The translations under genes were made by a program, and so were the position numbers. This document shows, piece by piece, positions 7,263 through 21,490 of a DNA stretch of 64,000 nucleotides. This DNA comes from an uncultured Coriobacteriia bacterium (GTDB lineage Bacteria > Actinomycetota > Coriobacteriia > Coriobacteriales > QAMH01), in contig CAUHSG010000007.1 in the NCBI GenBank assembly GCA_959608885.1, forward strand, positions 1,616-65,615. The letters are read 5' to 3'. Below the pieces are notes generated by a model. That model was not told the origin of the DNA, searched no databases, and saw only the letters and a list, made by a program, of their open reading frames with translations. Numbering within the stretch: the stretch's first letter is position 1; each line of letters starts with the position of its first letter.

Positions 7263-7408
7263 CGCCTTTCCTCTCCATGTTCTTATGATTTGAATACACG
7301 CCGATTCCCGAGCCCCGCGCTGTCCCTCTCGTGAAACGAAGGGACATGCGCGCATGCGTCGGGCCCCCCAGCTCGACATCTTCAAAGATGGGGGAAGCGG
7401 CCGGTCTA

Positions 7409-7443
7409 TTCAATTTGCAATGATTCTGAATTGGGAACAGTGC
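7409..7443 (-). promoter_or_regulatory. candidate operator/promoter element upstream of the SDR-MFS-SDR-VOC operon
   Basis: TTCAATT (7409-7415) and TTGGGAACAGTGC (7431-7443). The 13-mer is identical to 13244-13256, which lies in the equivalent position downstream of the paralogous TetR gene. Confidence 0.45.
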
Positions 7444-7539
7444 CAGGGCAGCTGGAGCCGCTGGGCATGTTTGGGAGACACATCGCGATCACCCGCACCC
7501 AATCGGTACAAATCGGGCGATCTGTTTCCTCTCCCTGGA

Positions 7540-8115: not shown

Positions 8116-8187
8116 AGTCGTCCCCCTCGACTCTGCTCTCTACCCCAAGGAGTACGCTCCTCCTATGCCCTAGGCTATGACTTCGTA

Positions 8188-8703
8188 TCAGTGCTCGCCG
8201 GCGGAAAGCGACTCCTGCAGCCTGTCGCAGCCGCACGTGCACCCCTCGGGATGCAACTCATGCTCAATAGGCGTCTCGCTCACGATATCGACTAAGGTGA
8301 TGTCGAAGTTGAGGTTCTGGCCTGCGAGCTCGTGATTGCAATCGAGCACCACCTCTTCGTCGCCTACCTCGAGCACGCGCACGCGCATGACATCGCCCTC
8401 GGGCGTCTGGATGCCCAGCATCGCGCCCACCGGGAGCGCCTCGCCATTGGGAAGCGAGGTCACGGGCATCGAGATGACGAGGGCCTCGTCACGCTGCCCG
8501 TAGGCGCGATCAGCCGGGATGTGAATGCTGCGCGTCTCGCCCACTTTCATGCCCATCACGGCATAATCGAAATCGGGCAGCACGACGCCGCTTCCCGCCA
8601 CGAACTCGAGCGGCTCATCTTGGGCCTTCGTGCTCGCAAACTCCGTGCCGTCATCGAGTTTGCCGCGATACTCGACGATGACGCGATCCCCCTGGTTAAC
8701 CAT
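8188..8703 (-). CDS. slyD: FKBP-type peptidyl-prolyl cis-trans isomerase, SlyD-like
   Basis: FKBP fold blocks (VEYRGKLDDGTEF, LEFVAGSGVVLPDFDYAVMGMKVGE), an inserted flap region and a Cys/His-rich tail (HELHPEGCTCGCD...GEH). Confidence 0.8.
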   Translation of the reverse strand: MVNQGDRVIVEYRGKLDDGTEFASTKAQDEPLEFVAGSGVVLPDFDYAVMGMKVGETRSIHIPADRAYGQRDEALVISMPVTSLPNGEALPVGAMLGIQTPEGDVMRVRVLEVGDEEVVLDCNHELAGQNLNFDITLVDIVSETPIEHELHPEGCTCGCDRLQESLSAGEH

Positions 8704-8712
8704 ATTGCTCCC

Positions 8713-8982
8713 TCATCTCTCGCGATTCTTCCCGCGCGCGACGGCGCCGGAGTACATGTTCACCCACGCGCCATCGCGTCGCTCGTAAAACGGCTTGAGC
8801 ACGATGTGCCCTCCGTGCGACCCCGAGCCGTGACACGCGATGACGCCTTCCTCGACGATGCCATCGAGCACGAAGACGTCAGCTTCCACCTCGTAGTAAC
8901 GACGACCATCGGAGCCCAGGAATGCTCCCGAGCTCCGATCGATGGCCACGACTGGTATTTCACGCAAACGGGCTTTTGCCAT
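8713..8982 (-). CDS. hypothetical 89-aa protein
   Basis: ORF packed 6 nt after the VOC stop and 9 nt before the slyD-like start. I recognise no motif. The coding call rests on operon packing only. Confidence 0.45.
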   Translation of the reverse strand: MAKARLREIPVVAIDRSSGAFLGSDGRRYYEVEADVFVLDGIVEEGVIACHGSGSHGGHIVLKPFYERRDGAWVNMYSGAVARGKNRER

Positions 8983-8988
8983 GCGAAT

Positions 8989-9528
8989 CTAGCGTCCCAT
9001 CATCGCCATGACGTCCTGAATGCCCACGAGGGCGACGTCATCCGGCCACTTCTGGTGCACGCCCATGCCCATCTGCCGCACTTGTTCGAGCGGCGGATTG
9101 ATCTCGATGTACTGCCCGAGCTGTTCGCGTGCGTCGACGTAGACCACGCGCATTCCGGAGCCCGAGACCATGTCCATGGCGACCTCGATGCCGGCAGCGG
9201 CAAATTCGTCGACTGTCTCCTGCACGTCGTCGACCCAGATGCAGTAGTGATGCAAGCCGTAACGCTCCGCCTCGGAGTACGGGCTCGGACAATCGCTCTT
9301 GTCCTCGATGAGCTCGATCTCCATGTCACCGAGGTACCCGATGGCCGTGCGCATCTTGACCGGTTGCTCGACGCCACGAATCTTGCAGCTCTCTGGGGCG
9401 TTCACACCCATGTCGATGAACGGACCGGCACCGAAGAGGTCGTGATACAGCTGTGCCGTCTCCTCGATACTCTCCACGTTATACCCGAGCTGTCTGATGC
9501 CGTATTTTCCGAAAAGCTCCTTGCCCAT
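8989..9528 (-). CDS. VOC family protein
   Basis: 179 aa with a glyoxalase/VOC-like layout (IRQLGYNVESIEETAQLYHDLFGAGPF, GLHHYCIWVDDV). Confidence 0.75.
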   Translation of the reverse strand: MGKELFGKYGIRQLGYNVESIEETAQLYHDLFGAGPFIDMGVNAPESCKIRGVEQPVKMRTAIGYLGDMEIELIEDKSDCPSPYSEAERYGLHHYCIWVDDVQETVDEFAAAGIEVAMDMVSGSGMRVVYVDAREQLGQYIEINPPLEQVRQMGMGVHQKWPDDVALVGIQDVMAMMGR

Positions 9529-9612
9529 GGTTCCTCCTCATGTGAGTAGATGCATTCGCGCTCGCGAAAAGAGCAGGCCGTCGACACATGCCGACGGCCC
9601 TTTGCCCCAGAC

Positions 9613-10416
9613 TTACGCAAGCGGAATGTCGCCCAGTCCCTTGTCTTCCTCGAGCGTGCTCACCTCGAGAGTGGCCCTCTTGCCGCCCTTCTCGATCTCG
9701 ACACGCCACTCGGCATCCGGCAGGTCCTTGAGCCAGAAGTCGCCCCAGCTGTCGGTCGTTGCCGTGACCGTTCCCTCGGCGCAAGTCGCGGTGACGGTCG
9801 CGCCCTCGACGATCTCCTCGGTCTCCGGGTCGTACACCGTGCCGGCGATGAACTTCTTGGGCAGACTGCGATAGTAGACATGCGGATCTGTCTTGTACTC
9901 GGGATGAAGCACCTCGCAACCCGTCAGGTCGAAGTCCTCGGCCTCACCAAACTGGATGACGTCGAGATGGCAGTTGTCCATGCAGCGCGGCGTGTGGATG
10001 GGCTGCTCGGGATCGTCGATGAGATGCGCGCAACCCGTGCACTTCTGCGGAATCTCCTTCTCCTCGTTCCAGTAGATGACATGGTACGGGCAGGCGTCGA
10101 CGATCTGCTTCTGGCCCTTGGCCTTGACCGGGTCGATGATGACCAGGCCGTCATCGCGACGGTAGACTGCGTCGTCTTTGGCTGCCCTCATGCAGGGAGC
10201 GTCCCCGCAATGATTGCACAGGCGCGGCGTGTAGCTCACCTTGACGTGCGGCTTGTGCCCGCGTTCCTTCTGCTCGACCTTCATCCAGAACTGGCCGATT
10301 TCGGGCTGCTCCTCGGCATAGGGCATCCAGCAGTTACCGCAATGCTCGTCCTTGCAGCCGATCTGGCAGTTATGGCAGCCGACGCAACGGGCGGCGTCGA
10401 TAACGAATACCTTCAT
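9613..10416 (-). CDS. 4Fe-4S subunit of AthL/BthL-type (pyrogallol hydroxytransferase-like) molybdoenzyme
   Basis: Cys motifs CVGCHNCQIGC, CNHCGDAPC and CTGCAHL...C. The block IIDPVKAKGQKQIVDACPYHVIYWNEEKEIPQKCTGCAHLIDD is present. The C-terminal ~75-aa all-beta module (GTVYDPETEEIVEGATVTATCAEG...) matches the layout I recall for BthL (274 aa). Confidence 0.8.
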   Translation of the reverse strand: MKVFVIDAARCVGCHNCQIGCKDEHCGNCWMPYAEEQPEIGQFWMKVEQKERGHKPHVKVSYTPRLCNHCGDAPCMRAAKDDAVYRRDDGLVIIDPVKAKGQKQIVDACPYHVIYWNEEKEIPQKCTGCAHLIDDPEQPIHTPRCMDNCHLDVIQFGEAEDFDLTGCEVLHPEYKTDPHVYYRSLPKKFIAGTVYDPETEEIVEGATVTATCAEGTVTATTDSWGDFWLKDLPDAEWRVEIEKGGKRATLEVSTLEEDKGLGDIPLA

Positions 10417-10431
10417 GATATGACCTCTCTC

Positions 10432-13107
10432 CTACTTCTCGATAACCCAGGACTTGCGGTTGATGCCGATGGCCGGGTCGTAGTCACGTGCGAACGCCTC
10501 GGGGTAGTCGCGCTTCCAGCCCTCGTACTCCTCGTCGGTGACCTTGGCGACCTCGGCCAGGTAACCCGTGACCGCAAAGCCCTTGCAGTGCTTGGAGACC
10601 TGGTTGCCCGGGCAGATGAGGTTCGCGGCGCCACCGCGGTCCAGGTGCGGGGCGATCGGGTCCACGCGGCTGCCCTTGGCGATGACGACGCTACGCGCCG
10701 TCACGCGCTCGGAGATGCGCGCACCGCACAGGATCGTGCCACGCTCGTTGAACATCTTGACGATGTCGCCGTCCTCGATACCGCGGGCCTCGGCGTCCTC
10801 GGGAGCCAGCCACAGCGGCTCGTAGAGGTAGCCGTCCTTGCCCTTGACCTTGCAGGTCTCGATCTCGCGGAACCACTTGATGTCGTCACCTTGCACATGC
10901 ACGCGCCACTTGGCGGGGTTTGCCGTGACGAGCAGCGGGTACTTCTTGCAACGCTCGCCCCAGAAGGTCTCGTCGTGGGTCCATCCCTCCTCGGCCGGGC
11001 CGCCGACGATCCAACGCGCCATGGGCGTGCGCTCCTTGTCATCAGGGAAGTTGTCGGCCAACGCCTGGCTCCAGAACTCGATCTTGCCCGTGGGCGTGTC
11101 GAGCGGGTACTCCTCGGGGTTCTCGTAGAAGTTGCGCATGCCGGGGGCCATCTGCTCCCAGTTCTCCTCGAGCTTGGGATAGTAGTAGCCCTTTTCCTTA
11201 TAGGTGTCCCAGTCGATCTCCTCGACGAGACGCGAGCTCTGGAAGGCCGTCTCGATCCACATGTCATCGCTCATGCCCTTGTCGATTTCCTCGCGCACGC
11301 CAAAGCGCTCGCCGATCTTGCAGGCGATTTCGAAGTCCGAAAGCGACTCACCCTGGTGCTCGATGGCCGCGGGCGTGAGGCCGGCATGACGCACAGGGAC
11401 CTGCGAGGAGGCACCCATGTCGTCGTTGTCCTCGACGCAGGTCGTGACGGGAAGCACCAGATCAGCAAACAGCGAGTCGTTCTCGAGCCACTGATGGTTG
11501 GTGATGAAACACTCGACCTCGTCGGTGCGAATGGCGTCCTGGTAGTTGAAGCCGCCGTCCCAGCAGTTCATGTTGCAGGGCTTCTCCGACCACAACAGGT
11601 GAATACGGTTGACCTTGGGCTCCTCGGTGGGGATGGGCTTGCCGAATCGCTCGGCCATGGCCTGCTGCATCGCGAGCGCCGCCTTGGGATTGCCGGGATA
11701 GTTGAACTCCTGGAACTGCTCGCTCGTCTCGACGTAGACGATACAGGGGCTGCCCCACCACGTGGCCTTGCCGGTCTGCAGCGCCTCGGCGATCATCGTA
11801 CGCGGCAGCGACTGCGCGCTGGGGAAGAACATGCGGCACTGGATTGCCATGGTGAACGGCGCCGTGGTCGAACGTGCGATGGTCTCCTTGGCGGTGACCT
11901 GCGCGCTCAGGTGGTACTGCTGCACACCTGGCTTACCCAGACCCTGCAGGGCGAGCAGGTAGGCTGAGGTGCGGGCGGGCTCGTGGCTATACGGCGTCTT
12001 GATCGAGCCGGAGCTGTAGTGCACGTGCGAGGTCGCCTTCTTGGCCGTGTTGCGCGCAAAGGCCTTGATGGTCCAAGCGGGAACGCCGCAGCGTTCGGCT
12101 GCCCATGCGGGGGTCTTGGGCTCGCCGTCCTCCTTGCCCAGCACGTAGTCAGCCATCTTGTCGAAGTGCACGGTATGCGTCTCGACATAGTCCTTGTCGT
12201 AGAGGCCCTCGGTCAACCACGTGTAGATGACGCCGAAGTGGAAGGCCGCGTCGGTGTTGGGAAGGATGGGAATCCACTTCATGGTGTGGCACACGGAGGT
12301 GTAGTTGCAGAACGGGTCGACGCAGATCATCTCCTTGCCAAGCTTCTCCCAATACCCCATGACTTGCGAGAGGAACATACTCGCATAGTTGGTGGTGAGC
12401 TCGTAGTCGCCCGCGTCGAAGACGAGCATCTCGGAGTTCTGGCAGATGTCGAGCAGAACGTTCCACGAGTTATAGCCCGTCTCAGGCGGCGCGACCAGGC
12501 CAAGACCCTTGTTGGCACCTGCGCCCCAGACGTGCTTGGCGCCCCAGTACCATCCCTCGACCGAGTCCGGCGTACGCGTCTCGCGCGTGTAGCCGCCCAG
12601 CTTGTCCATGAGCGTGGCGTGCATGCCACCACCAGCATGCAGGTCCTTGGACTCGCGATGGCCGTCCTCGCCGATGCAGATCACCGAGTACGGTCCATAC
12701 TTGTCGATGACGCGACGCAGCTCGGACTCGACGATGTCGAGTGCCTCGTCCCAGCTGATTTCGACAAACTTCGATATGCCGCGGTTTGCGGAATTGATCT
12801 TGGCAGGATCTCCGCCTGGCTCCCAGTCGACGCGCTTGAGCGGTTTGAGGACGCGGTTCTTCGAGTAGACGCGGTTCTTGTACGCGAGCGCCATCCAGTT
12901 GGGACACGTCTTGATGCTCGGCTCGAACACCTTGCCGTCGACGTCGATCTTCCACATCGAAGGTGCGAGCTCCTCCTTGGTGTAGGCGGTATCGTTCCTG
13001 AATGGGCGAATGCGCAAGATCTTGCCATCCATGGTGTCGACCGCGGTAATCTCACCGCCCGTTCCGCCACACGCGATGCTTTGGAGTGTGGTCTTGATCT
13101 CCTTCAT
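10432..13107 (-). CDS. molybdopterin oxidoreductase large subunit, AthL (pyrogallol hydroxytransferase)-like
   Basis: 891 aa with no signal peptide and no N-terminal Cys cluster. Blocks typical of the transhydroxylase alpha subunit are present: PDSVEGWYWGAKHVWG and YVLGKEDGEPKTPAWAAERCGVPAWTIKAFARNTAKK. The small subunit starts 15 nt downstream. Confidence 0.82.
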   Translation of the reverse strand: MKEIKTTLQSIACGGTGGEITAVDTMDGKILRIRPFRNDTAYTKEELAPSMWKIDVDGKVFEPSIKTCPNWMALAYKNRVYSKNRVLKPLKRVDWEPGGDPAKINSANRGISKFVEISWDEALDIVESELRRVIDKYGPYSVICIGEDGHRESKDLHAGGGMHATLMDKLGGYTRETRTPDSVEGWYWGAKHVWGAGANKGLGLVAPPETGYNSWNVLLDICQNSEMLVFDAGDYELTTNYASMFLSQVMGYWEKLGKEMICVDPFCNYTSVCHTMKWIPILPNTDAAFHFGVIYTWLTEGLYDKDYVETHTVHFDKMADYVLGKEDGEPKTPAWAAERCGVPAWTIKAFARNTAKKATSHVHYSSGSIKTPYSHEPARTSAYLLALQGLGKPGVQQYHLSAQVTAKETIARSTTAPFTMAIQCRMFFPSAQSLPRTMIAEALQTGKATWWGSPCIVYVETSEQFQEFNYPGNPKAALAMQQAMAERFGKPIPTEEPKVNRIHLLWSEKPCNMNCWDGGFNYQDAIRTDEVECFITNHQWLENDSLFADLVLPVTTCVEDNDDMGASSQVPVRHAGLTPAAIEHQGESLSDFEIACKIGERFGVREEIDKGMSDDMWIETAFQSSRLVEEIDWDTYKEKGYYYPKLEENWEQMAPGMRNFYENPEEYPLDTPTGKIEFWSQALADNFPDDKERTPMARWIVGGPAEEGWTHDETFWGERCKKYPLLVTANPAKWRVHVQGDDIKWFREIETCKVKGKDGYLYEPLWLAPEDAEARGIEDGDIVKMFNERGTILCGARISERVTARSVVIAKGSRVDPIAPHLDRGGAANLICPGNQVSKHCKGFAVTGYLAEVAKVTDEEYEGWKRDYPEAFARDYDPAIGINRKSWVIEK

Positions 13108-13211
13108 CTGTTCTCCCTTTCCTCTTCACGATGCGACGAACGACGCACGCGGGGGGATTCGCGCATGGCTCGCCACCTTATGCATCCATCTTGGAAGAGT
13201 CGAAAGGGGCC

Positions 13212-13256
13212 TTCAATTCCCAAGGTCTTCGATTCGTTTTCGATTGGGAACAGTGC
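13212..13256 (-). promoter_or_regulatory. candidate operator/promoter element upstream of the AthL/BthL-like operon
   Basis: TTCAATT (13212-13218). TTCCCAA (13217-13223) forms an inverted repeat with TTGGGAA (13244-13250). The 13-mer TTGGGAACAGTGC (13244-13256) is identical to 7431-7443. Confidence 0.45.
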
Positions 13257-13322
13257 GCATGCATCGTGTACCAACGCATGACACATTGCGGGGTTTGTAC
13301 ATTCTTAGAAGAGAATAAAGAC

Positions 13323-13886
13323 TTACTTCGCGATGCTTCGCCAGAAGGTCCCCGTCACGCTACCATAGAGATCGGCGAGCTCCTTGGGCGAAACGCGCAT
13401 ACCGTCGGCAACCCACTTCTGCATGAGCATGGCCTGTGACGAGGCGAAGAAGTACGCGATGTAGTCCGTGTGCCAATCGTCCGCGAGCCTCGTGGTCTTG
13501 GGAATGAGCTCCATATTGAGCTGGTAGATTGCCTGGGTCGCGATGCGCAGGAAGGTGTCGTCCTTGCCGAATATGGGGCCGATGAGGTTCTTGAAGAACT
13601 CGCCTTCGGCGGCCAGGCGCTCGTACATCTGCTCGTTCATGCGCTCCATGAGAGGTTCGAGATCACTGAGGTCGAGCAGACGATTGAGGTCGCGAATGGG
13701 TTGCAATACGGAGGACTCGAAAACCAAGCGAATGACATCGTCCTTGTCCTCGAAGTTGGCGTAAAAGGTGTTGCGCGAGATGCGGGCGCGCAGGCACAGT
13801 TCGTTTACCGTGACCTTTGGATAGCGTGTGGTGACGAGCATGTCCTTCAATGCGGCGATGACACGTTCCTTCGTCTCTGTCATCAT
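13323..13886 (-). CDS. TetR/AcrR family transcriptional regulator
   Basis: HTH YPKVTVNELCLRARISRNTFYANFEDKDD. The C-terminal half is paralogous to 7540-8115 (DYIAYFFASSQAMLMQKWVADG). Confidence 0.9.
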   Translation of the reverse strand: MMTETKERVIAALKDMLVTTRYPKVTVNELCLRARISRNTFYANFEDKDDVIRLVFESSVLQPIRDLNRLLDLSDLEPLMERMNEQMYERLAAEGEFFKNLIGPIFGKDDTFLRIATQAIYQLNMELIPKTTRLADDWHTDYIAYFFASSQAMLMQKWVADGMRVSPKELADLYGSVTGTFWRSIAK

Positions 13887-13999
13887 TGCCTCCCCACGAT
13901 AGCCCCTACGCCGATTTTACCACCTGCGATATCCATAGAATCACATCTCGTTCTGTTGTATACTGAATCGAACATTTGTTTGTGAGAAAGGAGGCGATC

Positions 14000-15640
14000 A
14001 TGGCCAGGCGCACGGTGCAACAGCTCAGCGTTGACGAGCTCCGCACGCAAATTTCCCAGCGCCTGCGTTCCAACGCCGCCTTCAGCAAGACCGTCTACCA
14101 AGACCAGCCCATCATCATGACGGGCAGCCAGCTCAAGAGCTTCGTGCCAGACGCCATACGCGAGGCCCGCCAGCTCGCACGTACGCTTTACGCGCAAAAC
14201 GCGAGCGTTGCCAGCGTCTTCTACGAGCAGGCACGCCTGCTAGCCGGATATGAGGACGACTTCGAGTTCACCGGCACGTTCTCGCACTACTACCCCAGCT
14301 ACGAGGACATGAGCAACGAGCAGCTGCGCGGCTACTTCGCCTGGCGTGCCAAGGCGCGGCAGGGCAACGTCGAGCAGGGTTCCCTCTCGTTCGCCTACGT
14401 CTACCTCTACGAGCTCATCAACCTCGTGGGCGTCGCCGGCGCGCGCGAGGGCTACGACGCGATGCTCGCCTTTGGCAGCGCATACCGCCGCTTCGATGCG
14501 CGCTTCGGCAAGCACCTCGATGCCTGGCTTGACGACTTCGTCATCTACTACGGCCTGGATGCGAGCTTGTTGCGCACGCGTTCGTTCGCCAAGCGTGACG
14601 CCGCCTTCGACGTGCTACTGCACCATGAGGCGCATGCGAAGGGCGAGATCTTCGACGCGCTCGTCACACTCGGTGCCTATGCGATCGTCGATTCGCCCTT
14701 CTTCATCGAGCACGAAGCCGAGCTTAGGCAACTCGTCGTGCACGCCTATCGGGCTGCCGCCCAGCATCACGCGAAGCTCAAGACGGCGCTACCCGCCAAG
14801 CTCGCCGGACGTCTCAAGAACGAGCGTCTCTGGCTGTTCGAGAGGGCCGTCTTCGCCAACCCGCTCGCCATCGATACCGCCAAGTACCAGATCAGCGCCC
14901 ACGACACGGTGTATTGCCGCAACGGTGCGTGGTTCCGTATCCGCTACGAGGCCCTGGAGCGTCCGTTGCCCTGGGTCACCCAGCTGCTCGAGACTTGCGA
15001 GTGCGTCTTGCGTGATGTCTACGCATACCCCAACACGCTCGAGCGCAAACTCGTCACCAAGTACCTGCTCAGGGCAATCGAGGCGCGGGCGAGCGAGCTC
15101 GCCGAGGAGACGCGCCTGCGCGAGGAGCGGGCCGTGCACATCGACTTTTCGCAGCTCGACCACATCCGCGCCGCCGCCGAGGTAACCTGCGAGAAGCTCA
15201 TCGTGGACGATGATAGCAATCTCATCATGCGCGGGGACAAAATCCAAACACCCACTACGTCGCGCGGGGACGGCGCAGTCGCTCAGACAGTCCTGAGCTC
15301 GCACGAAAGCGCCACTGGCGCTTTCGCGAGTATGCGGCGACGCGAAGCTAGTCCCTTTAGGGAAACTCGCTTTGTGCATCCGTCCCCGCGCGTTATGCAA
15401 CGGTCCTCTTCATTTTCTCTCACGCCTGATGAAGCTGCTCTCCTCGTCCACTTACTCGCTGGTGGTGAAATTCGCGAGTTCGAGCGCGCGCATGGCTGCA
15501 TGGCATCCGTGCTCGTCGACTCCATCAACGACAAGCTCTACGACGAGTTCGCCGACATCTGCATCGACACCTGCACCGGAGAGCCCGTCATCATCGAAGA
15601 TTACGTCCCTAAACTACGCGAACTGCTCGACCTGTCCTGA
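14000..15640 (+). CDS. sngA: TerB-N / TerB-C domain protein (Shango SngA-like)
   Basis: AAGGAGG lies 6 nt before ATG 14000. TerB-N-type block: YPSYEDMSNEQLRGYFAWRAKARQGNVEQGSLSFAYVYLYELINLVG. The C-terminal TerB-C-like segment reads LTPDEAALLVHLLAGG...SINDKLYDEFADICID. It is the first gene of a tightly packed triad. Confidence 0.65.
   Translation: MARRTVQQLSVDELRTQISQRLRSNAAFSKTVYQDQPIIMTGSQLKSFVPDAIREARQLARTLYAQNASVASVFYEQARLLAGYEDDFEFTGTFSHYYPSYEDMSNEQLRGYFAWRAKARQGNVEQGSLSFAYVYLYELINLVGVAGAREGYDAMLAFGSAYRRFDARFGKHLDAWLDDFVIYYGLDASLLRTRSFAKRDAAFDVLLHHEAHAKGEIFDALVTLGAYAIVDSPFFIEHEAELRQLVVHAYRAAAQHHAKLKTALPAKLAGRLKNERLWLFERAVFANPLAIDTAKYQISAHDTVYCRNGAWFRIRYEALERPLPWVTQLLETCECVLRDVYAYPNTLERKLVTKYLLRAIEARASELAEETRLREERAVHIDFSQLDHIRAAAEVTCEKLIVDDDSNLIMRGDKIQTPTTSRGDGAVAQTVLSSHESATGAFASMRRREASPFRETRFVHPSPRVMQRSSSFSLTPDEAALLVHLLAGGEIREFERAHGCMASVLVDSINDKLYDEFADICIDTCTGEPVIIEDYVPKLRELLDLS
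15281..15370. repeat. in-frame fragment of the dispersed palindromic repeat also found at 31852-32033
   Basis: 15333-15370 (38 nt) equals the reverse complement of 31941-31978. 15281-15294 equals the reverse complement of 31912-31925. A 33-nt hairpin lies between the two matches. Confidence 0.85.
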
Positions 15641-15650
15641 AGGAGCTGCT

Positions 15651-16997
15651 GTGGCCACCAAGATTCCCAAACGCATCGCATCGACCGTGCTCAACTCCCT
15701 CAAGGGCGGTGTCGTGCCACGCGTCGGCCTGCCCTACGTCGCCGTCGGGCGCGAAGCCGAGATAGACGCCCTGCTGCACGATGTCGACATCATCGCCGAT
15801 GGCGGGGCCACCTTTCGCTTCATCGTCGGCAAGTACGGAAGCGGCAAGAGCTTCCTGCTGCAAACCATCCGCAACTACGCGATGGACCGCAACTTCGTCG
15901 TCGTCGATGCCGACCTCTCCCCCGAGCGCCGCTTGCAAGGCGGCCACGGCCAGGGTCTTGCCACCTACAAGGAGCTCATCCGCAACATGTCGACCAAAAC
16001 CCGCCCCGAAGGCGGTGCGCTCACGCTCATCCTCGATCGCTGGATCTCGGGCGTGCAGCAAGACGTGCTTGCCGAAGGGCATGAGCCCGGCACAGAACCC
16101 TTCGCACAGCGCGTCGAGATGCGCATCCACGAGGTCGTGGGCACGCTTTCGGAGCTCGTGCATGGCTTCGACTTCGCGCAGCTGCTCGTCATGTACTACC
16201 GCGCTTACGTCAACGACGACGAAGACACCAAGGCCAAGGTCATCAAATGGTTCAGGGGTGAGTACGCCAACAAGACCGAGGCCAGAAACGAGCTCGGCAT
16301 CCGCATCATCATCTCCGACGACGATTGGTACGAGTACATCAAGCTCTTCGCATCCTTCCTCGTGCAAGCGGGCTACGCCGGATTGCTCGTGCTCATCGAC
16401 GAGCTCGTGAACATCTACAAGGTTCCCAACTCCATCACGCGACAGTACAACTACGAGAAAATCCTCACGATGTACAACGACACGCTGCAGGGCAAAGCGC
16501 AACATCTGGGCATCATCATGGGTGGCACGCCCCAGTGCGTCGAGGACAAGCGTCGTGGCGTCTATTCGTACGAGGCACTGCGCAGTCGCCTGGCCGAGGG
16601 GCGCTTTGCCAGCCAGCAGTACAAGGACATGCTCGCCCCCATCATCCGTCTCGTGCCGCTCACGCATGAGGAGCTATTCGTTCTCGCCGAGAAACTCGCC
16701 GCCATCCACGCACAGCTCTTCGATTACGAGCCACGCCTCACCGACGATCAGCTCGTCCAGTTCATCAAGACGGAGTTCGAGCGCGTGGGAGCAAGCACCC
16801 ACATCACGCCACGCGAGGTTATCCGCGATTTCATCGAGCTACTCGACATCATGTACCAGAACCCCGATGCGCAGATGGACGAGTTGCTGGCAAGCGAGGC
16901 CTTTACCAGCGCCACTGCGCCCGATGCTTCGAACAGCGTAAGCGTGGGTGCCGAGGCAAACGACCGGCAGGAAAACTTCTTCGAATTCACGCTCTAG
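15651..16997 (+). CDS. sngB: P-loop ATPase, DUF2791/BrxD-like (Shango SngB-like)
   Basis: GTG 15651 lies 5 nt after AAGGAG and 10 nt after the sngA-like stop. Walker A is GKYGSGKS and Walker B is GLLVLIDE. N-terminal block: GLPYVAVGREAEIDALLHDVD. Confidence 0.65.
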   Translation: MATKIPKRIASTVLNSLKGGVVPRVGLPYVAVGREAEIDALLHDVDIIADGGATFRFIVGKYGSGKSFLLQTIRNYAMDRNFVVVDADLSPERRLQGGHGQGLATYKELIRNMSTKTRPEGGALTLILDRWISGVQQDVLAEGHEPGTEPFAQRVEMRIHEVVGTLSELVHGFDFAQLLVMYYRAYVNDDEDTKAKVIKWFRGEYANKTEARNELGIRIIISDDDWYEYIKLFASFLVQAGYAGLLVLIDELVNIYKVPNSITRQYNYEKILTMYNDTLQGKAQHLGIIMGGTPQCVEDKRRGVYSYEALRSRLAEGRFASQQYKDMLAPIIRLVPLTHEELFVLAEKLAAIHAQLFDYEPRLTDDQLVQFIKTEFERVGASTHITPREVIRDFIELLDIMYQNPDAQMDELLASEAFTSATAPDASNSVSVGAEANDRQENFFEFTL

Positions 16998-17000
16998 GCG

Positions 17001-19358
17001 GTGGCCATGGACGTTTTTGCCTCATATGCGCCTTTCATCCAGGACTTCATCTACCGCAATGGCTGGGAGAGCCTGCGCTCAGTGCAAGTCGCCGCAGCCG
17101 ACGCCATCTTCAATTCCGAAGACAACGTCCTGTTGGCCGCATCGACCGCATCGGGTAAGACCGAAGCTGCGTTCTTCCCCATACTCTCCCAGCTCGACGA
17201 GAATCCTTCCTCGAGCGTCGGCGTAATCTACATCGCGCCGCTCAAGGCACTCATCAACGACCAGTTCGGCCGTCTCACCGAGCTCTGCGAGGAGGCCGAG
17301 ATTCCCGTCTGGCGCTGGCACGGCGATGTCGCGCAATCGCGCAAGAGCAAGCTGCTCAAGCACCCGAGCGGCATCCTGCAGATCACGCCGGAGTCCCTCG
17401 AGGCGCTGCTCTTGCACAAGCATTCCCACATTCCTGCTCTCTTCGGCGACCTGCGCTTCATCGTCATCGACGAGATTCACTCCCTCATGCGCGCCGATCG
17501 TGGCGGACAATGCCTCTGCCTCATCGAGCGCCTCTCGCGCCTCGCATCATGCAACCCGCGTCGCATCGGGTTGTCGGCAACCATCGGAGACCTCGAGCTG
17601 GCCGGGCGCTTCCTCGGCTCGGGTTCGGGCCGCGACACCATCATCCCCCGCATCGAGGACGCGCAACAGCGCTGGCGCCTGTCCATGTCGCACTTCTTCG
17701 TGGGGGAGGGTGCCGAAGAGATGGCCGTATCGGCACAGCCCGATGGGGAGGCGCGAAGCGGAGGTCCAAGGGAGCGAGCCGGCGAGACCACAGGCTCGCG
17801 GGGAGCGACTGTCGGAGCGGAGCGCCTCCCCATCGCCGCTGCACCCGAGCCCGCTACTGACACCGCTCCCGCTGGCGCGGACCTTGGCCTTGGCTACATC
17901 TTCGAGCATACGCGCGGCAAGAAGTGCCTCGTCTTCTGCAACTCGCGCGAAGAGGCCGAGGGCGTCACCACCACGCTACGCCGCTATTGTGAGGCCAACA
18001 ACGAACCCGACCGCTTCTTCATCCATCATGGCAACCTCTCGTCAGCCGTGCGCGAGAGCGCGGAGAACGTCATGCGAGACGAGGAGCTCGACCTCACGAC
18101 GGTCACCACCGCAACGCTCGAGCTCGGCATCGACATCGGTCGTCTCGAGCGAGCCTTCCAGATCGACGCGCCCTTCACGGTGAGCGCATTCCTACAGCGC
18201 ATGGGTCGCACGGGGCGGCGAGGCTCGCCCCCGGAAATGTGGTTCGTCATGCGCGAGGACCGCGCCGAGCCACGCACCACCCTGGGCGCGACCATCCCCT
18301 GGAAGCTCCTGCAGGGCATCGCTCTCGTACAGCTCTACCTCGAGGATCGCTGGGTCGAGCCGCCGCGCCTCGACCGCCTGCCCTACAGCTTGCTCTACCA
18401 CCAGACCATGGCAACCCTTGCCAGTGGGGGCGAGATGACACCGGCCGAGCTCGCGGCCCGCGTGCTCACGCTCGGATACTTTCATCGCGTGAGCAGCGAG
18501 GACTTCCGCATCCTGTTGCACCACCTCATCGAAACCGACCATATCCAGCTTACCGAGGAAGGTGGCCTTATCGTCGGCATTGCGGGCGAACGCGTCATCA
18601 ACAGCTACCGCTTCTACGGCGTCTTCCAGGAGAATGAGGAGTACACCGTTCGCAACGAGTCCCAGGAGCTCGGCACCATCGTACTGCCACCACCCGTGGG
18701 CGAGAAGCTCGCCATTGCCGGTGCCACCTGGCTCGTCGAGGAGGTCGACCACAAGCGGCACCTCGTCTACGCCACACAGGTCAAGGGCCAGGTGCCGGCA
18801 TACTTCGGCGACGTACCGGGCGACATCAACACCGTCGTGCTCGAACGCATGCTGCGCGTGCTCATGGAAGACACAGATTATCCCTACCTCATGGACAACG
18901 CGCGCGGCAGGCTCGCCCAAGCCCGCTCGACCGCACGCAACGCCCATCTCGACCACGTGCCGCTCGTTCGGCTGGGTGGCGATACCTGGGGGCTCTTCCC
19001 CTGGCTCGGCAGCTACGCGTTTCTCGCGCTCGAGCGTTTCCTCAAGATCAAGTGCGCCGACCAGCTCCAGCTCAAGGGCCTTGACTCGCCTCGTCCCTAT
19101 TTCATGGAGTTTCGCATGAAGGGCGACGAGCAGCTCTTCTACGACGTGCTCGCCGAGCAGGCGCTGACGCCGTTTGATCCACTTGACCTTGTCTATCCCG
19201 ACGAAGTTCCCATCTGGGAGAAATACGACGAATACGTGCCCATCGAGCTCATCCGCAAGGGTTTTGCCGAAAGCGTTCTCGACATCGACGGCATGCTCAA
19301 GCGCGTGCGCCAGTGGTGCGGCCTGCCCGACGAGAAGCCGTTGCAGCTACCAGGCTAG
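17001..19358 (+). CDS. sngC: DEAD/DEAH-box (Lhr-like) helicase (Shango SngC-like)
   Basis: Starts 3 nt after the sngB-like stop (GTG 17001, or ATG 17007). Helicase motifs: ASTASGKTEAA (I), VIDEIHSL (II), LSATIG (III), QRMGRTGRR (VI). A low-complexity insert lies between the RecA lobes, and the C-terminal region is long. Confidence 0.7.
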   Translation: MAMDVFASYAPFIQDFIYRNGWESLRSVQVAAADAIFNSEDNVLLAASTASGKTEAAFFPILSQLDENPSSSVGVIYIAPLKALINDQFGRLTELCEEAEIPVWRWHGDVAQSRKSKLLKHPSGILQITPESLEALLLHKHSHIPALFGDLRFIVIDEIHSLMRADRGGQCLCLIERLSRLASCNPRRIGLSATIGDLELAGRFLGSGSGRDTIIPRIEDAQQRWRLSMSHFFVGEGAEEMAVSAQPDGEARSGGPRERAGETTGSRGATVGAERLPIAAAPEPATDTAPAGADLGLGYIFEHTRGKKCLVFCNSREEAEGVTTTLRRYCEANNEPDRFFIHHGNLSSAVRESAENVMRDEELDLTTVTTATLELGIDIGRLERAFQIDAPFTVSAFLQRMGRTGRRGSPPEMWFVMREDRAEPRTTLGATIPWKLLQGIALVQLYLEDRWVEPPRLDRLPYSLLYHQTMATLASGGEMTPAELAARVLTLGYFHRVSSEDFRILLHHLIETDHIQLTEEGGLIVGIAGERVINSYRFYGVFQENEEYTVRNESQELGTIVLPPPVGEKLAIAGATWLVEEVDHKRHLVYATQVKGQVPAYFGDVPGDINTVVLERMLRVLMEDTDYPYLMDNARGRLAQARSTARNAHLDHVPLVRLGGDTWGLFPWLGSYAFLALERFLKIKCADQLQLKGLDSPRPYFMEFRMKGDEQLFYDVLAEQALTPFDPLDLVYPDEVPIWEKYDEYVPIELIRKGFAESVLDIDGMLKRVRQWCGLPDEKPLQLPG

Positions 19359-19361: not shown

Positions 19362-19754
19362 CTACTCCCCCACCACCTGCACGTAGACCTTGCGGTGGCG
19401 CGGGCCGTCGAACTCGCAGAAGTAGATGCCCTGCCAGGTGCCAAGCGCCATGGCGCCGCCCGCCACGGGAATGGTCTCCGACGCACCGATGGCGCTGCTC
19501 TTGAGGTGCGCGGCGCTGTTGCCCTCGGCATGCTTGAAGTCACGCCGGTCGGGAAAGATGTCCGCCAGCGCGAGCTTGAGGTCGCGTACGACATCGGGGT
19601 CCGCATTCTCGTTGATGGTGATCGCGGCCGTGGTATGCGGGCAGTACACCACGCACAAGCCCTCCTCGATGCCGCTTTCCCGCACGATTTGCCTTACTCG
19701 CGCCGTGATGTCGACAAACCCGTAGGCCGGTGTCTCCAGTTCGAATCGTTCCAT
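19362..19754 (-). CDS. yjbQ: YjbQ/UPF0047 family protein (secondary thiamine-phosphate synthase-like)
   Basis: 130 aa with CVVYCPHTTAAITINENADPDV and HLKSS blocks. SD GGGAGG precedes the ATG. Confidence 0.85.
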   Translation of the reverse strand: MERFELETPAYGFVDITARVRQIVRESGIEEGLCVVYCPHTTAAITINENADPDVVRDLKLALADIFPDRRDFKHAEGNSAAHLKSSAIGASETIPVAGGAMALGTWQGIYFCEFDGPRHRKVYVQVVGE

Positions 19755-19768: not shown

Positions 19769-19805
19769 AAAATGAGACAATACCTTTGAGCAATTGTCTC
19801 ATTTT
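19769..19805. repeat. ATGAGACA-family stem-loop
   Basis: 13-bp stem AAAATGAGACAAT / ATTGTCTCATTTT with an 11-nt loop. It lies 15 nt upstream of the yjbQ start. On the minus strand it is followed by TTTTAAT. Confidence 0.8.
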
Positions 19806-19835
19806 CGACAGCGAGGAGCATGACCATGAGCGAGT

Positions 19836-19864
19836 TGTGTCATGGGGTCAGACCCCATGACACA
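19836..19864. repeat. 29-bp palindrome TGTGTCATGGGGTC-A-GACCCCATGACACA
   Basis: Perfect 14-bp arms immediately after the stop of the AAA ATPase gene. It shares the core GGGGTCNGACCCC with the palindrome at 36521-36581. Confidence 0.8.
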
Positions 19865-19868
19865 TGCT

Positions 19869-21218
19869 CTAGCTTTCGGGTTTGGCGGTACGCAAAAACC
19901 ATTCGATGGCAGACATGACGCGAATGTGCTTCTCGTCGAAATCGATTTCCTCGCCCTCTCCTGACCCGACAATAAGGATCAGCTCGTCAATTCCCGTCTC
20001 GTCGGCAGCTTCCACGAGCGCGCGCAACTCCCGTTCACGGGTTTCCTGCGAATCCAGCGATGCGCAGACCTGATAGAGTGCGGGCGCTTCGCCCAGGACG
20101 CTGTCGCCGACAAGGAAGTCGATTTCGTATTGGTGCCGGCTCGTGCGATAGCTCGATATCGCATTTTCGCGCAATCCGACCGTCCTGCGACGCAGCTCGA
20201 GGTACACGGCGTCCTCAAGACGCTGGCCTTCGTTGTTGCTGCCAGCCTTGGCATTTGCCAGAGCGAGTCCGGGATCTATCGCATAGACCTTCCTGTTTTG
20301 CGACACCTTCGGTTTTTCGATGCGCCTCTCCTCTACGAGAAAGGCCAGATATGCAGCGGAAAGGTAATTCACGATATTAGCGATGGAGGCGCGAGCTGTG
20401 TTCAAGCCCTGGGACCGGAGGTAGCTCTCCATCTTGCGAAGCGAAAGTTGACAGCCGTTCAATTCGAGCAGCCTCTGACTTATCGCACTTGCTGCTTCCA
20501 GCCCCTTCAAACCATGCCTCTCCACAACGTCCTTTGCGGCTACGCGACTCGCATAGCTTTGGAGCAGCGTCACCCGCAACGGCATCGACAGGTTGATGGC
20601 GTCCGGAAAGCCGCCACATTCCAAATACGTCTGCAAGGCATTTTGCAGCCTGGAGCGGCCGTTTGTCGTCTTGATCAACCCCACGTCCAAACCAACGAAC
20701 CTCAAGTACTCCGCAAATGAAAACGGCAGCAACTCGAATTCGAGAGCGCGACCCCTGAATTCCGTGCCTATCTCATCAGAAAGGAGTTTCGACGACGACC
20801 CCGTCAAATAGAAGGTCGCCTTTTGGGTATCGACCATACGGCGCATCCACGCGCTCCAACCATCCATTTCCTGGATTTCGTCGAAGAAGTAGTAGACGCC
20901 TTTCTCCGCGGATTCCGGATGCTCGTCCCGGAAGGCTTGGATTACCGCATCTCCAGTACTCGTCGTCACGCGTCCCAGCCGATCATCCTCGAAGTTGAAG
21001 TAGCAGATTCGACTCCATGGGACGTCCTCGTCATGCAGCTTGATCATCTCCTGCAAAAGACGAAAGCTCTTGCCACTTCTGCGCATACCGATAATGACCT
21101 TTACAAGATTGCCGGCCCGCGGAGGAGGTGTCTCGCCCAGGTCGAGATCTCTGGGGACGACAGGCAGATAGTCATCGATATTGAAATCCCTGAGAATTTG
21201 GACGATGGTGGAATCCAT
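19869..21218 (-). CDS. AAA family ATPase with DUF4143-type C-terminal region
   Basis: 449 aa with Walker A GMRRSGKS. The layout is typical of AAA_14 + DUF4143 proteins. G+C is lower and the upstream region is A+T-rich. Confidence 0.75.
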   Translation of the reverse strand: MDSTIVQILRDFNIDDYLPVVPRDLDLGETPPPRAGNLVKVIIGMRRSGKSFRLLQEMIKLHDEDVPWSRICYFNFEDDRLGRVTTSTGDAVIQAFRDEHPESAEKGVYYFFDEIQEMDGWSAWMRRMVDTQKATFYLTGSSSKLLSDEIGTEFRGRALEFELLPFSFAEYLRFVGLDVGLIKTTNGRSRLQNALQTYLECGGFPDAINLSMPLRVTLLQSYASRVAAKDVVERHGLKGLEAASAISQRLLELNGCQLSLRKMESYLRSQGLNTARASIANIVNYLSAAYLAFLVEERRIEKPKVSQNRKVYAIDPGLALANAKAGSNNEGQRLEDAVYLELRRRTVGLRENAISSYRTSRHQYEIDFLVGDSVLGEAPALYQVCASLDSQETRERELRALVEAADETGIDELILIVGSGEGEEIDFDEKHIRVMSAIEWFLRTAKPES

Positions 21219-21390
21219 GACCTTGAGCCCTTCGGATTGTAATCTGATATTTGGGAAAGCACTTTTATCAATAATGGCAATCTCATGTTACCATAAATAG
21301 CATTATCTGGTAACTTAAAGTTACCACTTTTCCATTTGCGAGGAGGTCAGAGTCCTTGGCACATTCGACACACGCTATATCGCGCAACGC

Positions 21391-21425
21391 GAATGAGACA
21401 ATTGCTCAGAGACGTTGTCTCATTC
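21391..21425. repeat. ATGAGACA-family stem-loop
   Basis: 11-bp stem GAATGAGACAA / TTGTCTCATTC. Arm plus loop (AATGAGACAATTGCTCAGAG) matches the reverse complement of 19785-19805 at 19/20 positions. Confidence 0.8.
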
Positions 21426-21490
21426 AGAATCCGTGGGAAAATGGAGTGAGATTTCTGAAGCAACATCGGCACCGCGGCAACCGGAGGAGC

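What the first reader, a model, noticed from the sequence alone, without database searches (positions are those of the whole stretch)
14000..19358. TerB / DUF2791-type ATPase / Lhr-like helicase triad: Shango-type (SngABC) anti-phage cassette in a Coriobacteriia-like genome
Three co-directional genes are separated by only 10 and 3 nt, and they are almost the only plus-strand genes in the left 40 kb. Gene 1 has a TerB-N block (YPSYEDMSNEQLRGYFAWRAKARQG...YVYLYELIN) and a TerB-C-like C-terminus. Gene 2 is a P-loop ATPase of the DUF2791/BrxD type (GKYGSGKS, LLVLIDE). Gene 3 is a DEAD/DEAH helicase (GKT, DEIH, SAT, QRMGRTGRR) with a long C-terminal region. This composition and order match the Shango defence system, which to my knowledge was described in 2022 and tested only in E. 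coli and Pseudomonas. Its mechanism is still unknown. This copy has two oddities. The helicase carries a ~70-aa low-complexity insert between the RecA lobes, and the TerB linker contains a repeat-derived insert. The cassette lies between a TetR/molybdoenzyme module and a further inserted ATPase gene, so 13.9-21.5 kb behaves like a variable island.
Basis: partly seen in the sequence, partly recalled or inferred. Interest (0 to 1): 0.7.

Follow-up and report, generated by a model that had tools for sequence, protein, structure and literature searches.

The report
Shango anti-phage operon, fixed, hairpin-studded
The three genes are a complete copy of the already known Shango anti-phage system in an uncultured human-gut Coriobacteriia bacterium; it is a stable fixture of that lineage rather than a variable island, and its one unusual trait is that small palindromic repeat elements sit in frame inside two of its genes.

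Summary
Window 14000-19358 holds three tightly packed plus-strand genes. All three match the PADLOC Shango models over their full length: SngA 7.6e-58, SngB 5.3e-194, SngC 2.5e-272. Pfam finds TerB_N + TerB_C, BrxC_BrxD (DUF2791) and DEAD + Helicase_C. The ATPase and helicase motifs are intact. This is a new member of a known system, and the papers I could search describe no mechanism for it.

The "variable island" reading fails for sngABC. All 25 related contigs with enough flanking DNA carry sngABC beside yjbQ, including 10 of 10 found through a neighbouring gene. GC3 is host-like. dN/dS is 0.02-0.07 for sngB and sngC and 0.13-0.26 for sngA.

The variable parts are:
- an ~11.5-kb metabolic module (2419-13989) between a Fic-HTH gene and sngA;
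- a 1654-bp single-gene ATPase cassette (19830-21483, PADLOC candidate PDC-S01) bounded by a 17-nt direct repeat;
- the two "odd" inserts.

Both inserts are hairpin-forming repeat elements translated in frame, one in a predicted disordered SngA tether and one in the SngC inter-lobe loop. Strains carry unrelated alleles at the same two sites, and one element is inverted in a relative.

The likely mechanism is inferred only: an ORC/Cdc6-like ATPase loads or activates an Lhr-like helicase on phage DNA, with SngA as sensor or adaptor.

The parts
14000..15640 (+). sngA, 546 aa. TerB_N covers residues 67-253 and TerB_C covers 369-540. The AF2 model is confident (pLDDT 86.6) except for the linker at residues 404-469.
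   Evidence: PADLOC SngA 7.6e-58. Pfam TerB_N 1.1e-27 and TerB_C 1.3e-16. AF2 model. No TM segment.
15223..15397 (.). Palindromic repeat element translated in frame inside the SngA disordered linker. Terminal inverted repeats lie at 15223-15238/15382-15397 and 15261-15273/15380-15392.
   Evidence: Folded stretch 15215-15405: dG -85.1 kcal/mol, z -4.9. 38 nt are identical to intergenic 31941-31978. The core 15266-15387 is inverted in L082 with the frame still open. The linker is hypervariable among >90%-identical homologues.
15651..16997 (+). sngB, 448 aa. ORC/Cdc6-type AAA+ ATPase of the BrxC_BrxD (DUF2791) family, with Walker A GKYGSGKS and Walker B LLVLIDE.
   Evidence: PADLOC SngB 5.3e-194 against BrxD 6.7e-53. 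PF10923 1.4e-173. NCBIfam BrxD scores 178 bits, below the 350 cut-off. Motifs.
17001..19358 (+). sngC, 785 aa (783 aa from ATG 17007). Lhr-like SF2 DEAD/DEAH helicase with a ~365-aa C-terminal region.
   Evidence: PADLOC SngC 2.5e-272 against BrxHI 1.2e-120. DEAD and Helicase_C. The best PDB relatives are Lhr structures 5v9x and 7lhl. Motifs I, II, III and VI are invariant across homologues.
17712..17870 (.). Hypervariable insert in the SngC inter-lobe loop (residues ~238-290). It contains a hairpin element with perfect 14-nt arms at 17741-17754 and 17822-17835.
   Evidence: Folded stretch 17735-17840: dG -59 kcal/mol, z -3.2. At least 3 unrelated alleles occupy the same codon position in 90-100%-identical genes. 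Two of them are perfect 32-38-bp-stem hairpins built from the ATGAGACA repeat family.
13887..13999 (.). 113-nt divergent intergenic region between tetR and sngA. It probably holds the sngA promoter (TATACT box at 13961-13966) and the RBS.
   Evidence: Sequence. Homology with Fic-adjacent strains (L066) resumes only at 13990, 10 nt before the ATG, so the upstream region is swapped between strains. The promoter assignment is an inference.
1852..2991 (-). Fic + winged-HTH gene (379 aa), a PADLOC defence candidate (PDC-S72). In many strains it is the immediate upstream neighbour of sngA.
   Evidence: Pfam Fic and HTH_24. PADLOC PDC-S72 8e-115. Contexts L066-L072.
2419..13989 (.). Strain-variable ~11.5-kb metabolic module: part of Fic, 2 SDRs, an MFS transporter, 2 TetR regulators, a molybdopterin oxidoreductase and its 4Fe-4S subunit. 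It is absent from L066-L072, and L001 lacks 3051-8194.
   Evidence: blastn collinearity. Pfam.
19362..19754 (-). yjbQ/UPF0047 gene, convergent with sngC (3 nt between the stop codons). It is the conserved right-hand neighbour of Shango.
   Evidence: Pfam UPF0047 2.3e-46. Adjacent to sngC in all related contigs.
19830..21483 (.). 1654-bp inserted segment carrying the AAA_14/DUF4143 ATPase gene (19869-21218, minus strand; PADLOC PDC-S01). It is bounded by the 17-nt perfect direct repeat GAGGAGCATGACCATGA at 19813-19829 and 21484-21500.
   Evidence: Absent from L004 and L066-72, which hold one copy of the 17-mer. Direct repeat. PADLOC PDC-S01 2e-89. GC3 is 0.67 against ~0.8 for the neighbours.
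19771..19803 (.). REP-like hairpin AATGAGACAAT...ATTGTCTCATT between yjbQ and the MBL-fold gene. Further copies lie at 21392-21424, 35288-35322 and 54907-54941.
   Evidence: 4 matches against 0 expected. The same family forms one sngC insert allele in other strains.

Best explanation
Window 14000-19358 is a complete, intact three-gene Shango (SngABC) anti-phage operon in an uncultured human-gut Coriobacteriia (Eggerthellaceae-like) chromosome.

**Shown.**
- All three proteins are full-length members of the SngA, SngB and SngC families with intact NTPase and helicase motifs.
- The genes are packed 3-10 nt apart in the canonical A-B-C order.
- They are conserved at this position across the lineage under purifying selection.
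- All three proteins lack transmembrane segments, and no nuclease or other recognised effector domain was detected.

**Inferred (about 40% for the specifics).**
- SngB is a stand-alone ORC/Cdc6-type AAA+ ATPase. It acts as an ATP-dependent loader or switch for SngC.
- SngC is an Lhr-like SF2 translocase. It engages phage DNA or replication intermediates and blocks replication by unwinding or stripping them, or by exposing them to host nucleases.
- SngA is the sensor or adaptor that licenses this. It has a TerB_N helical domain joined through a ~65-aa disordered tether to an acidic TerB_C module. Its faster evolution fits that role.
- The two 'odd' inserts are small palindromic repeat elements tolerated in frame at structurally permissive sites. 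They are most likely selfish passengers, not functional parts.
For: **Family membership.**
- PADLOC SngA, SngB and SngC hits cover nearly the whole models.
- Pfam finds TerB_N, TerB_C, BrxC_BrxD, DEAD and Helicase_C.

**Motifs and spacing.**
- The motifs are present and invariant in homologues.
- Spacing and the RBS are as stated.

**Conservation.**
- sngABC is present in 25 of 25 related contigs.
- dN/dS is 0.04-0.07 for sngB, 0.02-0.07 for sngC and 0.13-0.26 for sngA. dS is similar to the flanking genes.
- GC3 is 0.79-0.82, like the neighbours.

**Defence role of the family.**
- Shango protected E. coli about 10-fold and P. aeruginosa 10-100-fold (papers read).
- The same three-gene unit occurs on 8 IMG/VR viral contigs.
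- The neighbours are defence candidates: PDC-S72 Fic-HTH and PDC-S01.

**Loader-helicase idea.**
- SngB and SngC are the closest relatives of the BrxD-BrxHI dyad of type-2 BREX.
- PMC12839542 classifies BrxD as an ORC/Cdc6 AAA+ ATPase and proposes that it loads or activates BrxHI.
- The best solved relatives of SngC are Lhr helicases.

**Inserts.** They lie in a predicted disordered linker (pLDDT <50 for residues 404-469) and in an inter-lobe loop.
Against: - No function was tested here, and no Shango mechanism has been published.
- The loader-helicase model is borrowed from a hypothesis about BREX that is itself untested.
- No effector domain was found, so how infection is stopped is unknown.
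- Fixation in the lineage, host-like composition and strong purifying selection would equally fit a domesticated housekeeping role.
- The SngC structure prediction failed (pLDDT 42), so its C-terminal domains were not confirmed.
- The SngA model has no significant structural relative, so its 'sensor' role is conjecture.
Confidence: 0.85

Rival explanations
1. The cassette is a domesticated, housekeeping DNA-repair or replication-rescue module built on an Lhr-like helicase. It is no longer, or not primarily, an anti-phage system in this lineage.
For: - sngABC is present at the same position in all 25 related contigs over dS up to ~0.4.
- GC3 is host-like.
- dN/dS is very low for sngB and sngC.
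- Lhr-type helicases, the closest solved relatives, are DNA-damage-response enzymes (my own knowledge).
Against: - All three proteins fit the Shango models, whose tested members protect against phage.
- The NCBIfam ligase-associated Lhr model scores 200.7 bits against a cut-off of 850.
- More distant Eggerthellaceae lack the cassette at this locus, so it is not a family-wide core function.
- The neighbours are defence candidates.
- The same unit is carried on viral contigs.
Confidence: 0.1
2. sngABC is a recently acquired, strain-variable mobile defence island.
For: - It lies among segments that really are variable: the 2419-13989 module and the 19830-21483 ATPase cassette.
- It runs in the opposite orientation to most neighbours.
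- In L066-type strains sngABC is more similar to the window (dS 0.06-0.14) than its flanks are (dS 0.19-0.60). This suggests some recombinational exchange.
Against: - No empty site was found in 25 contigs.
- The cassette has no integrase, no tRNA and no flanking direct repeats.
- Codon usage is host-like.
- In most comparisons divergence tracks that of the flanks.
Confidence: 0.04
3. The SngB-SngC pair is a remnant of a type-2 BREX system (BrxD + BrxHI) rather than Shango.
For: The BrxD (6.7e-53) and BrxHI (1.2e-120) models also match, as does the BrxC_BrxD Pfam family.
Against: - The Sng models score far higher: 643 against 178 bits, and 904 against 402 bits.
- The NCBIfam BrxD equivalog scores below its cut-off.
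- An SngA gene is present.
- No PglZ, PglX, BrxC or PglW hit was found among the neighbours or the large ORFs of the window.
Confidence: 0.01

Closest known systems
Shango (SngABC) of E. coli (Millman et al. 2022) and P. aeruginosa PA14 cDHS1 (Johnson et al. 2022/23)
   Same: - The same three families occur in the same order, with full-length HMM matches.
- The ATPase and helicase motifs are intact.
- The cassette sits among other defence-type genes.
   Different: - The host is an uncultured gut Coriobacteriia.
- The cassette is fixed in the lineage, not variable in a hotspot.
- SngA (546 aa) is shorter than the 638-788-aa SngA on viral contigs.
- Palindromic repeat elements are inserted in frame in sngA and sngC.
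- It has not been tested for function.
BrxD-BrxHI dyad of type-2 BREX (Pgl)
   Same: An ORC/Cdc6-type stand-alone AAA+ ATPase is tightly linked to an Lhr/Ski2-like SF2 helicase. These are the second-best PADLOC matches. The domain description is in PMC12839542.
   Different: There is no PglZ, PglX, BrxC or PglW. The partner is a TerB_N/TerB_C protein instead. The Sng-specific models score 2-3.6 times higher in bits.
Lhr / Lhr-core helicases (PDB 5v9x, 7lhl) and MrfA/YprA (6znp)
   Same: They are the closest solved structures by sequence for the RecA-like core (E 1.6e-27 to 3.4e-20).
   Different: - The C-terminal 365 aa have no sequence match in the PDB.
- The NCBIfam Lhr-type equivalogs score far below their cut-offs.
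- SngC is operonic with SngA and SngB.
Rickettsia palindromic elements (RPEs) and other intragenic MITEs
   Same: Short palindromic repeat elements are inserted in frame in protein-coding genes and translated. Related copies occur elsewhere in the genome (review PMC10969869).
   Different: - Here two permissive sites of one defence operon carry several unrelated alleles.
- One element occurs in both orientations.
- Some alleles are perfect 32-38-bp-stem hairpins.
- Within the 64-kb window, the other strong hairpin elements listed (the longest 25 of 36 pairs) are intergenic or at tRNA genes, apart from two small or weak pairs inside Fic and sngB.

Membership tests
Shango (SngABC) | SngA: a protein with TerB_N and TerB_C domains that matches the SngA model | tested here: met
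   PADLOC SngA 7.6e-58, model positions 52-527 of 528. Pfam TerB_N 97.6 bits and TerB_C 61.6 bits, both above their cut-offs.
Shango (SngABC) | SngB: a DUF2791/BrxC_BrxD-family P-loop ATPase that matches SngB better than BrxD | tested here: met
   SngB 643 bits against BrxD 178 bits. PF10923 578 bits. Walker A and B are present.
Shango (SngABC) | SngC: an SF2 DEAD/DEAH helicase that matches SngC, with intact motifs | tested here: met
   SngC 904 bits, model positions 4-716 of 720. Motifs I, II, III and VI are present and invariant.
Shango (SngABC) | The three genes are adjacent and co-directional | tested here: met
   The gaps are 10 nt and 3 nt (or 9 nt). The same order occurs in relatives and on viral contigs.
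Shango (SngABC) | Confers resistance to phage | not testable with these tools
   This needs expression and phage challenge. It is shown only for the E. coli and P. aeruginosa members.
BREX type 2 | Core genes PglZ, PglX, BrxC and PglW accompany BrxD and BrxHI | tested here: not met
   No such PADLOC hit was found in the neighbours or in 9 other ORFs of the window, 8 of them 427-974 aa. The smaller ORFs of the window were not all scanned.
Tellurite-resistance TerB proteins | TerB domain proper (PF05099) | tested here: not met
   No PF05099 hit at E<=0.01 in the window protein or in any of 80 diverse SngA homologues. No transmembrane segment either.
Lhr / ligase-associated DEXH helicases | Reaches the NCBIfam equivalog cut-off | tested here: not met
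   TIGR04121 scores 200.7 bits against a cut-off of 850. PRK13767 scores 176 against 849.
Strain-variable defence island | Presence/absence polymorphism of the cassette among close relatives | tested here: not met
   sngABC (or the part of it that fits on the contig) is present in 25 of 25 informative contigs. The polymorphism does hold for 19830-21483 and 2419-13989.
Intragenic palindromic repeat elements (RPE/MITE-like) | Hairpin-forming, with related copies elsewhere in the genome, and inserted in frame | tested here: met
   z-scores are -4.9 and -3.2. Related copies lie at 31912-31978 and in the ATGAGACAA family. Reading frames are open in all alleles and in both orientations.
Intragenic palindromic repeat elements (RPE/MITE-like) | Evidence of transposition: target-site duplication, or a cognate transposase | tested here: inconclusive
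   Terminal inverted repeats were seen, but no clear target-site duplication. No transposase was looked for outside the window.

The most novel reading that the evidence does not exclude
The in-frame palindromic elements may not be passive junk. Two sites would be maintained as hotspots: the disordered tether of SngA and the inter-lobe loop of SngC. There, hairpin repeat elements are swapped, duplicated or inverted. Either this diversifies surface segments that phage anti-Shango proteins could target, or it tunes operon expression through very stable mRNA or DNA hairpins. That would be a cheap diversification or regulation device for a defence operon.
Probability: 0.1. Interest if true: 0.6.

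Novelty: new member of a known kind. Interest (0 to 1): 0.3.

Why it matters
Shango is a validated defence system with no known mechanism and no recognisable effector.

- **A natural comparison set.** This lineage keeps an intact copy at one chromosomal position across several species-level groups of a common human-gut actinobacterium, with many natural alleles. These show which parts tolerate change (the SngA tether and the SngC inter-lobe loop) and which do not (the TerB_N core, SngB, the helicase motifs and the SngC C-terminal region).
- **A correction.** 'TerB' in Shango means TerB_N and TerB_C only. The proteins are soluble, which weakens the membrane-surveillance idea.
- **Annotation practice.** A defence system flanked by variable DNA need not itself be variable.
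- **Side finding.** Translated palindromic repeats are a modest new example of RPE-like elements outside Rickettsia.

Tried and rejected
- **SngC structure.** The AF2 model of SngC from a shallow 12-sequence alignment gave mean pLDDT 42, so it was not used for fold search. Only its secondary-structure order is noted: helices, then a beta-rich segment, then alpha+beta. That order is compatible with the BrxHI description.
- **Deeper SngC alignment.** The third protein search, run with the profile A4, returned only the same close clade.
- **PDB sequence and profile searches.** SngA, SngB and the SngC C-terminal half gave nothing significant.
- **Foldseek on the confident SngA model.** Searches against PDB and BFVD found no significant match.
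  - Repeated local ~70-residue matches to LysR/ModE-type winged-helix domains (probability up to 0.8, E>1) are noted only as a weak lead.
  - The tool does not report which residues matched.
  - The helix-helix-helix-hairpin C-terminal module (476-542) is strongly acidic, so DNA binding is not supported.
- **Promoter and terminator scan.** It found no more than chance.
- **Public phage genomes.** tblastn of SngA found no match. Only three distant plasmid hits were found.
- **Rfam.** Only tRNAs were found.
- **Anantharaman et al. 2012.** The paper that defined TerB-N and TerB-C is not held, so what I say about it is from memory.
- **BREX-remnant reading.** Considered and rejected (see the rival explanations).
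- **Assembly artefact as the origin of the hairpin inserts.** Rejected, because each allele recurs in several independent assemblies.

Full report
**1. What is there**

Window 14000-19358 holds three plus-strand ORFs.
- sngA runs 14000-15640 (546 aa).
- sngB runs 15651-16997 (448 aa, GTG). It is preceded by AGGAG and starts 10 nt after the sngA stop.
- sngC runs 17001-19358 (785 aa from GTG). Public gene calls use ATG 17007, giving 783 aa.
- sngC ends 3 nt from the stop of the convergent yjbQ gene.

**2. Identity**

| Protein | Best PADLOC model | Rival model | Other evidence |
|---|---|---|---|
| SngA | SngA 7.6e-58 | none | Pfam TerB_N 1.1e-27, TerB_C 1.3e-16 |
| SngB | SngB 5.3e-194 (643 bits) | BrxD 178 bits | Pfam BrxC_BrxD (formerly DUF2791) 1.4e-173; NCBIfam BrxD below cut-off |
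| SngC | SngC 2.5e-272 (904 bits) | BrxHI 402 bits | Pfam DEAD + Helicase_C; Lhr-type NCBIfam equivalogs below cut-off |

- These results come, and each Sng match covers almost the whole model.
- The closest solved structures to SngC are Lhr helicases 5v9x and 7lhl, and MrfA.
- None of the neighbours or 9 other ORFs of the window (8 of them 427-974 aa) matches a BREX core protein.
- The cassette therefore meets every sequence-level criterion for Shango.

From the literature:
- Shango was reported in 2022 from E. coli (about 10-fold protection against two phages) and from P. aeruginosa PA14 (10-100-fold).
- A 2024 phylogeny groups SngC with BrxHI, DruE and DpdJ in their own SF2 clade.
- A September 2025 preprint still states that the role of TerB-domain defence proteins is unclear.
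- My literature searches found no mechanistic paper.

**3. A nuance about 'TerB'**

- Neither the window protein nor any of 80 diverse SngA homologues (28-78% identity) matches the TerB domain proper. All 80 have TerB_N and 79 have TerB_C.
- The SngA family is large. It has 2259 clusters at 50% identity with E<=1e-3.
- None of the three proteins has a transmembrane-like segment.
- The 'membrane surveillance' idea offered for TerB proteins therefore finds no support in these sequences.

**4. Structure**

- AF2 models SngA confidently (mean pLDDT 86.6), except for residues 404-469 (pLDDT <50).
- The order of elements is: a helical TerB_N region, a four-stranded sheet (272-316), long helices (324-400), a disordered tether, and a C-terminal helix-helix-helix-hairpin module (476-542).
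- Foldseek finds no significant relative in the PDB or BFVD. It gives only weak local winged-helix-like matches.
- The C-terminal module is strongly acidic, so I do not infer DNA binding from it.
- The SngC model failed (pLDDT 42).

**5. Is it a variable island?**

I anchored searches on neighbouring genes.
- *Molybdoenzyme anchor.* Two species-level relatives (L001 and L004, ~93% nucleotide identity) have tetR-sngABC-yjbQ collinear with the window. Two others (L002 and L003) have the molybdoenzyme in a different context, with no tetR or sng genes beside it.
- *Exact SngC protein.* It occurs on 19 contigs. In most of them (L066-L072) the gene just upstream of sngA is a Fic-HTH gene next to carB. 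In the window that Fic gene lies at 1852-2991.
- So the window carries an extra ~11.5-kb metabolic module (2419-13989) between Fic and sngA. Homology resumes at 13990, 10 nt before the sngA ATG.
- *MBL-fold gene anchor.* A metagenome scan gave 10 informative contigs with >=91% identical MBL, and all 10 have yjbQ and sngC beside it. Homologues at ~50% identity, from other Eggerthellaceae, have no sng genes nearby.

In total 25 of 25 informative contigs keep sngABC.
- GC3 of sngABC (0.79-0.82) equals that of the neighbours. The AAA_14 gene has 0.67.
- dN/dS is 0.04-0.07 for sngB, 0.02-0.07 for sngC and 0.13-0.26 for sngA. dS is mostly like the flanks.
- Shango is therefore a fixed, selected resident of this genus-level lineage, probably acquired at its base.
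- The family itself is mobile elsewhere. Eight IMG/VR viral contigs carry full sngABC. In Olegusella the operon is split by a ~7-kb insertion.

**6. What does vary**

(a) *The metabolic module* described above.

(b) *A 1654-bp segment (19830-21483).*
- It carries an AAA_14/DUF4143 ATPase (PADLOC candidate PDC-S01, 2e-89).
- It is bounded by a perfect 17-nt direct repeat. That repeat is the RBS and start of the MBL-fold gene.
- Empty sites hold one copy of the 17-mer.
- L001 has a different PDC-S01 subtype in the same slot.
- L085 and L088 look like remnants.

(c) *The two inserts.*
- The SngA tether holds a ~175-nt palindromic element (folded stretch dG -85 kcal/mol, z -4.9).
- 38 nt of it are identical to an intergenic palindromic element at 31.9 kb.
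- In L082 its 122-nt core is inverted, and the frame stays open.
- The tether varies in length and sequence among >90%-identical homologues, which range from 506 to 591 aa.
- The SngC inter-lobe loop holds a hairpin element (dG -59 kcal/mol, z -3.2).
- Other strains have unrelated alleles at the same codon position. These include perfect 32- and 38-bp-stem hairpins built from the ATGAGACAA...TTGTCTCAT repeat family.
- That family occurs four times in the window's intergenic DNA.
- Among the longest 25 of the 36 inverted-repeat pairs found in the 64-kb window, all but four lie in intergenic DNA or at tRNA genes. The four inside genes are the sngA and sngC elements, a 13-nt perfect pair inside Fic (2059-2099) and a weak 17-nt pair inside sngB (16484-16617).
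- The closest precedent is the in-frame Rickettsia palindromic elements.

**7. How it most likely works (inferred)**

- SngB and SngC are the closest relatives of the BrxD-BrxHI dyad.
- A 2026 analysis classifies BrxD as a stand-alone ORC/Cdc6 AAA+ ATPase. It classifies BrxHI as a Ski2/Lhr-like helicase with a wHTH, a beta-barrel and an Lhr-CTD-like domain, and it proposes helicase loading or activation.
- By analogy, SngB would load or switch on SngC on phage DNA or replication intermediates.
- SngA evolves fastest and has a tethered C-terminal module. It would be the sensor or adaptor.
- No nuclease or other effector domain was detected. Interference is therefore either mechanical, by unwinding or stripping, or depends on host nucleases.
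- I put about 0.4 on this specific scheme and about 0.9 or more on the family assignment.

**8. Verdict**

- This is a correct call of a known system in a new host, so it is a new member of a known kind.
- The island interpretation is wrong for the cassette itself, though right for its surroundings.
- The in-frame hairpin elements are the only unusual feature. They are most likely tolerated selfish DNA.

Noticed in passing
window 19830-21483; L001 (reverse) 19553-20974; L085 1955-2230; L088 1975-2345: The slot between yjbQ and the MBL-fold gene exists in four states. It is empty in L004 and L066. In the window it is filled by a PDC-S01 AAA_14/DUF4143 ATPase with a 17-nt duplication. In L001 it is filled by a different PDC-S01 subtype. 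L085 and L088 keep short remnants that retain the cassette's end hairpin (TGTGTCATGGGGTC/GACCCCATGACACA family). This looks like a single-gene cassette with conserved ends.
   Followed up: partly
window 2419-13989: An ~11.5-kb metabolic module lies between the Fic-HTH gene and sngA. It comprises two SDRs, an MFS transporter, two TetR regulators, a molybdopterin oxidoreductase and its 4Fe-4S subunit. It is absent from many strains that have an identical SngC. L001 lacks only 3051-8194. The sngA upstream region is swapped along with it.
   Followed up: partly
window 1852-2991: The Fic + winged-HTH gene matches PADLOC candidate PDC-S72 (8e-115) and weakly matches SoFic. Its GC3 fell below the filter used for gene calling. 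Together with Shango and PDC-S01 it forms a small defence-type cluster next to carB.
   Followed up: partly
window 29407-29503, 31852-32033, 35282-35328, 36506-36838, 54905-54943: Several families of long, partly perfect palindromic elements lie in intergenic DNA. One pair has 31-nt perfect arms at 29407-29476, and a ~330-nt cluster lies at 36.5-36.8 kb. These are REP/MITE-like repeats of this genome, and two of the families are related to the inserts in the sng genes.
   Followed up: partly
L160-L163 (Olegusella contigs): The Olegusella SngC (71% identical) is separated from the SngB-like gene by a ~7-kb insertion (GntR, an ABC transporter, DJ-1/PfpI genes). A 95-aa ORF sits just upstream of sngC. 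This may be a disrupted Shango.
   Followed up: no
L164-L171 (IMG/VR viral contigs): Eight predicted viral contigs (GC 0.44-0.60) carry full sngABC. Their SngA proteins are much longer (638-788 aa), and in L164 sngA is split into two ORFs. The viral or prophage nature of these contigs was not checked.
   Followed up: partly
L066 vs window: Between the window and L066-type strains, sngABC is more similar (dS 0.06-0.14) than yjbQ (0.60), the MBL-fold gene (0.26) or the permease (0.19). The locus is a recombination mosaic.
   Followed up: no
window 21497-22309, and the 409-aa gene homologous to L066 20338-21567: The public precomputed Pfam hits list 'Anti-Pycsar_Apyc1' for two MBL-fold genes near the defence genes. 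The hit is marked weak for the 270-aa gene. My own Pfam scan of the 270-aa protein returned only Lactamase_B families.
   Followed up: partly
window 42861-43347 and 25669-25745: There is a cluster of four tRNA genes (Val, Gly, Cys, Met) and a lone tRNA-Pro. None adjoins the Shango cassette. The 619-aa ORF at 44859-46718 gave DnaG-like hits and looks like the housekeeping primase.
   Followed up: no
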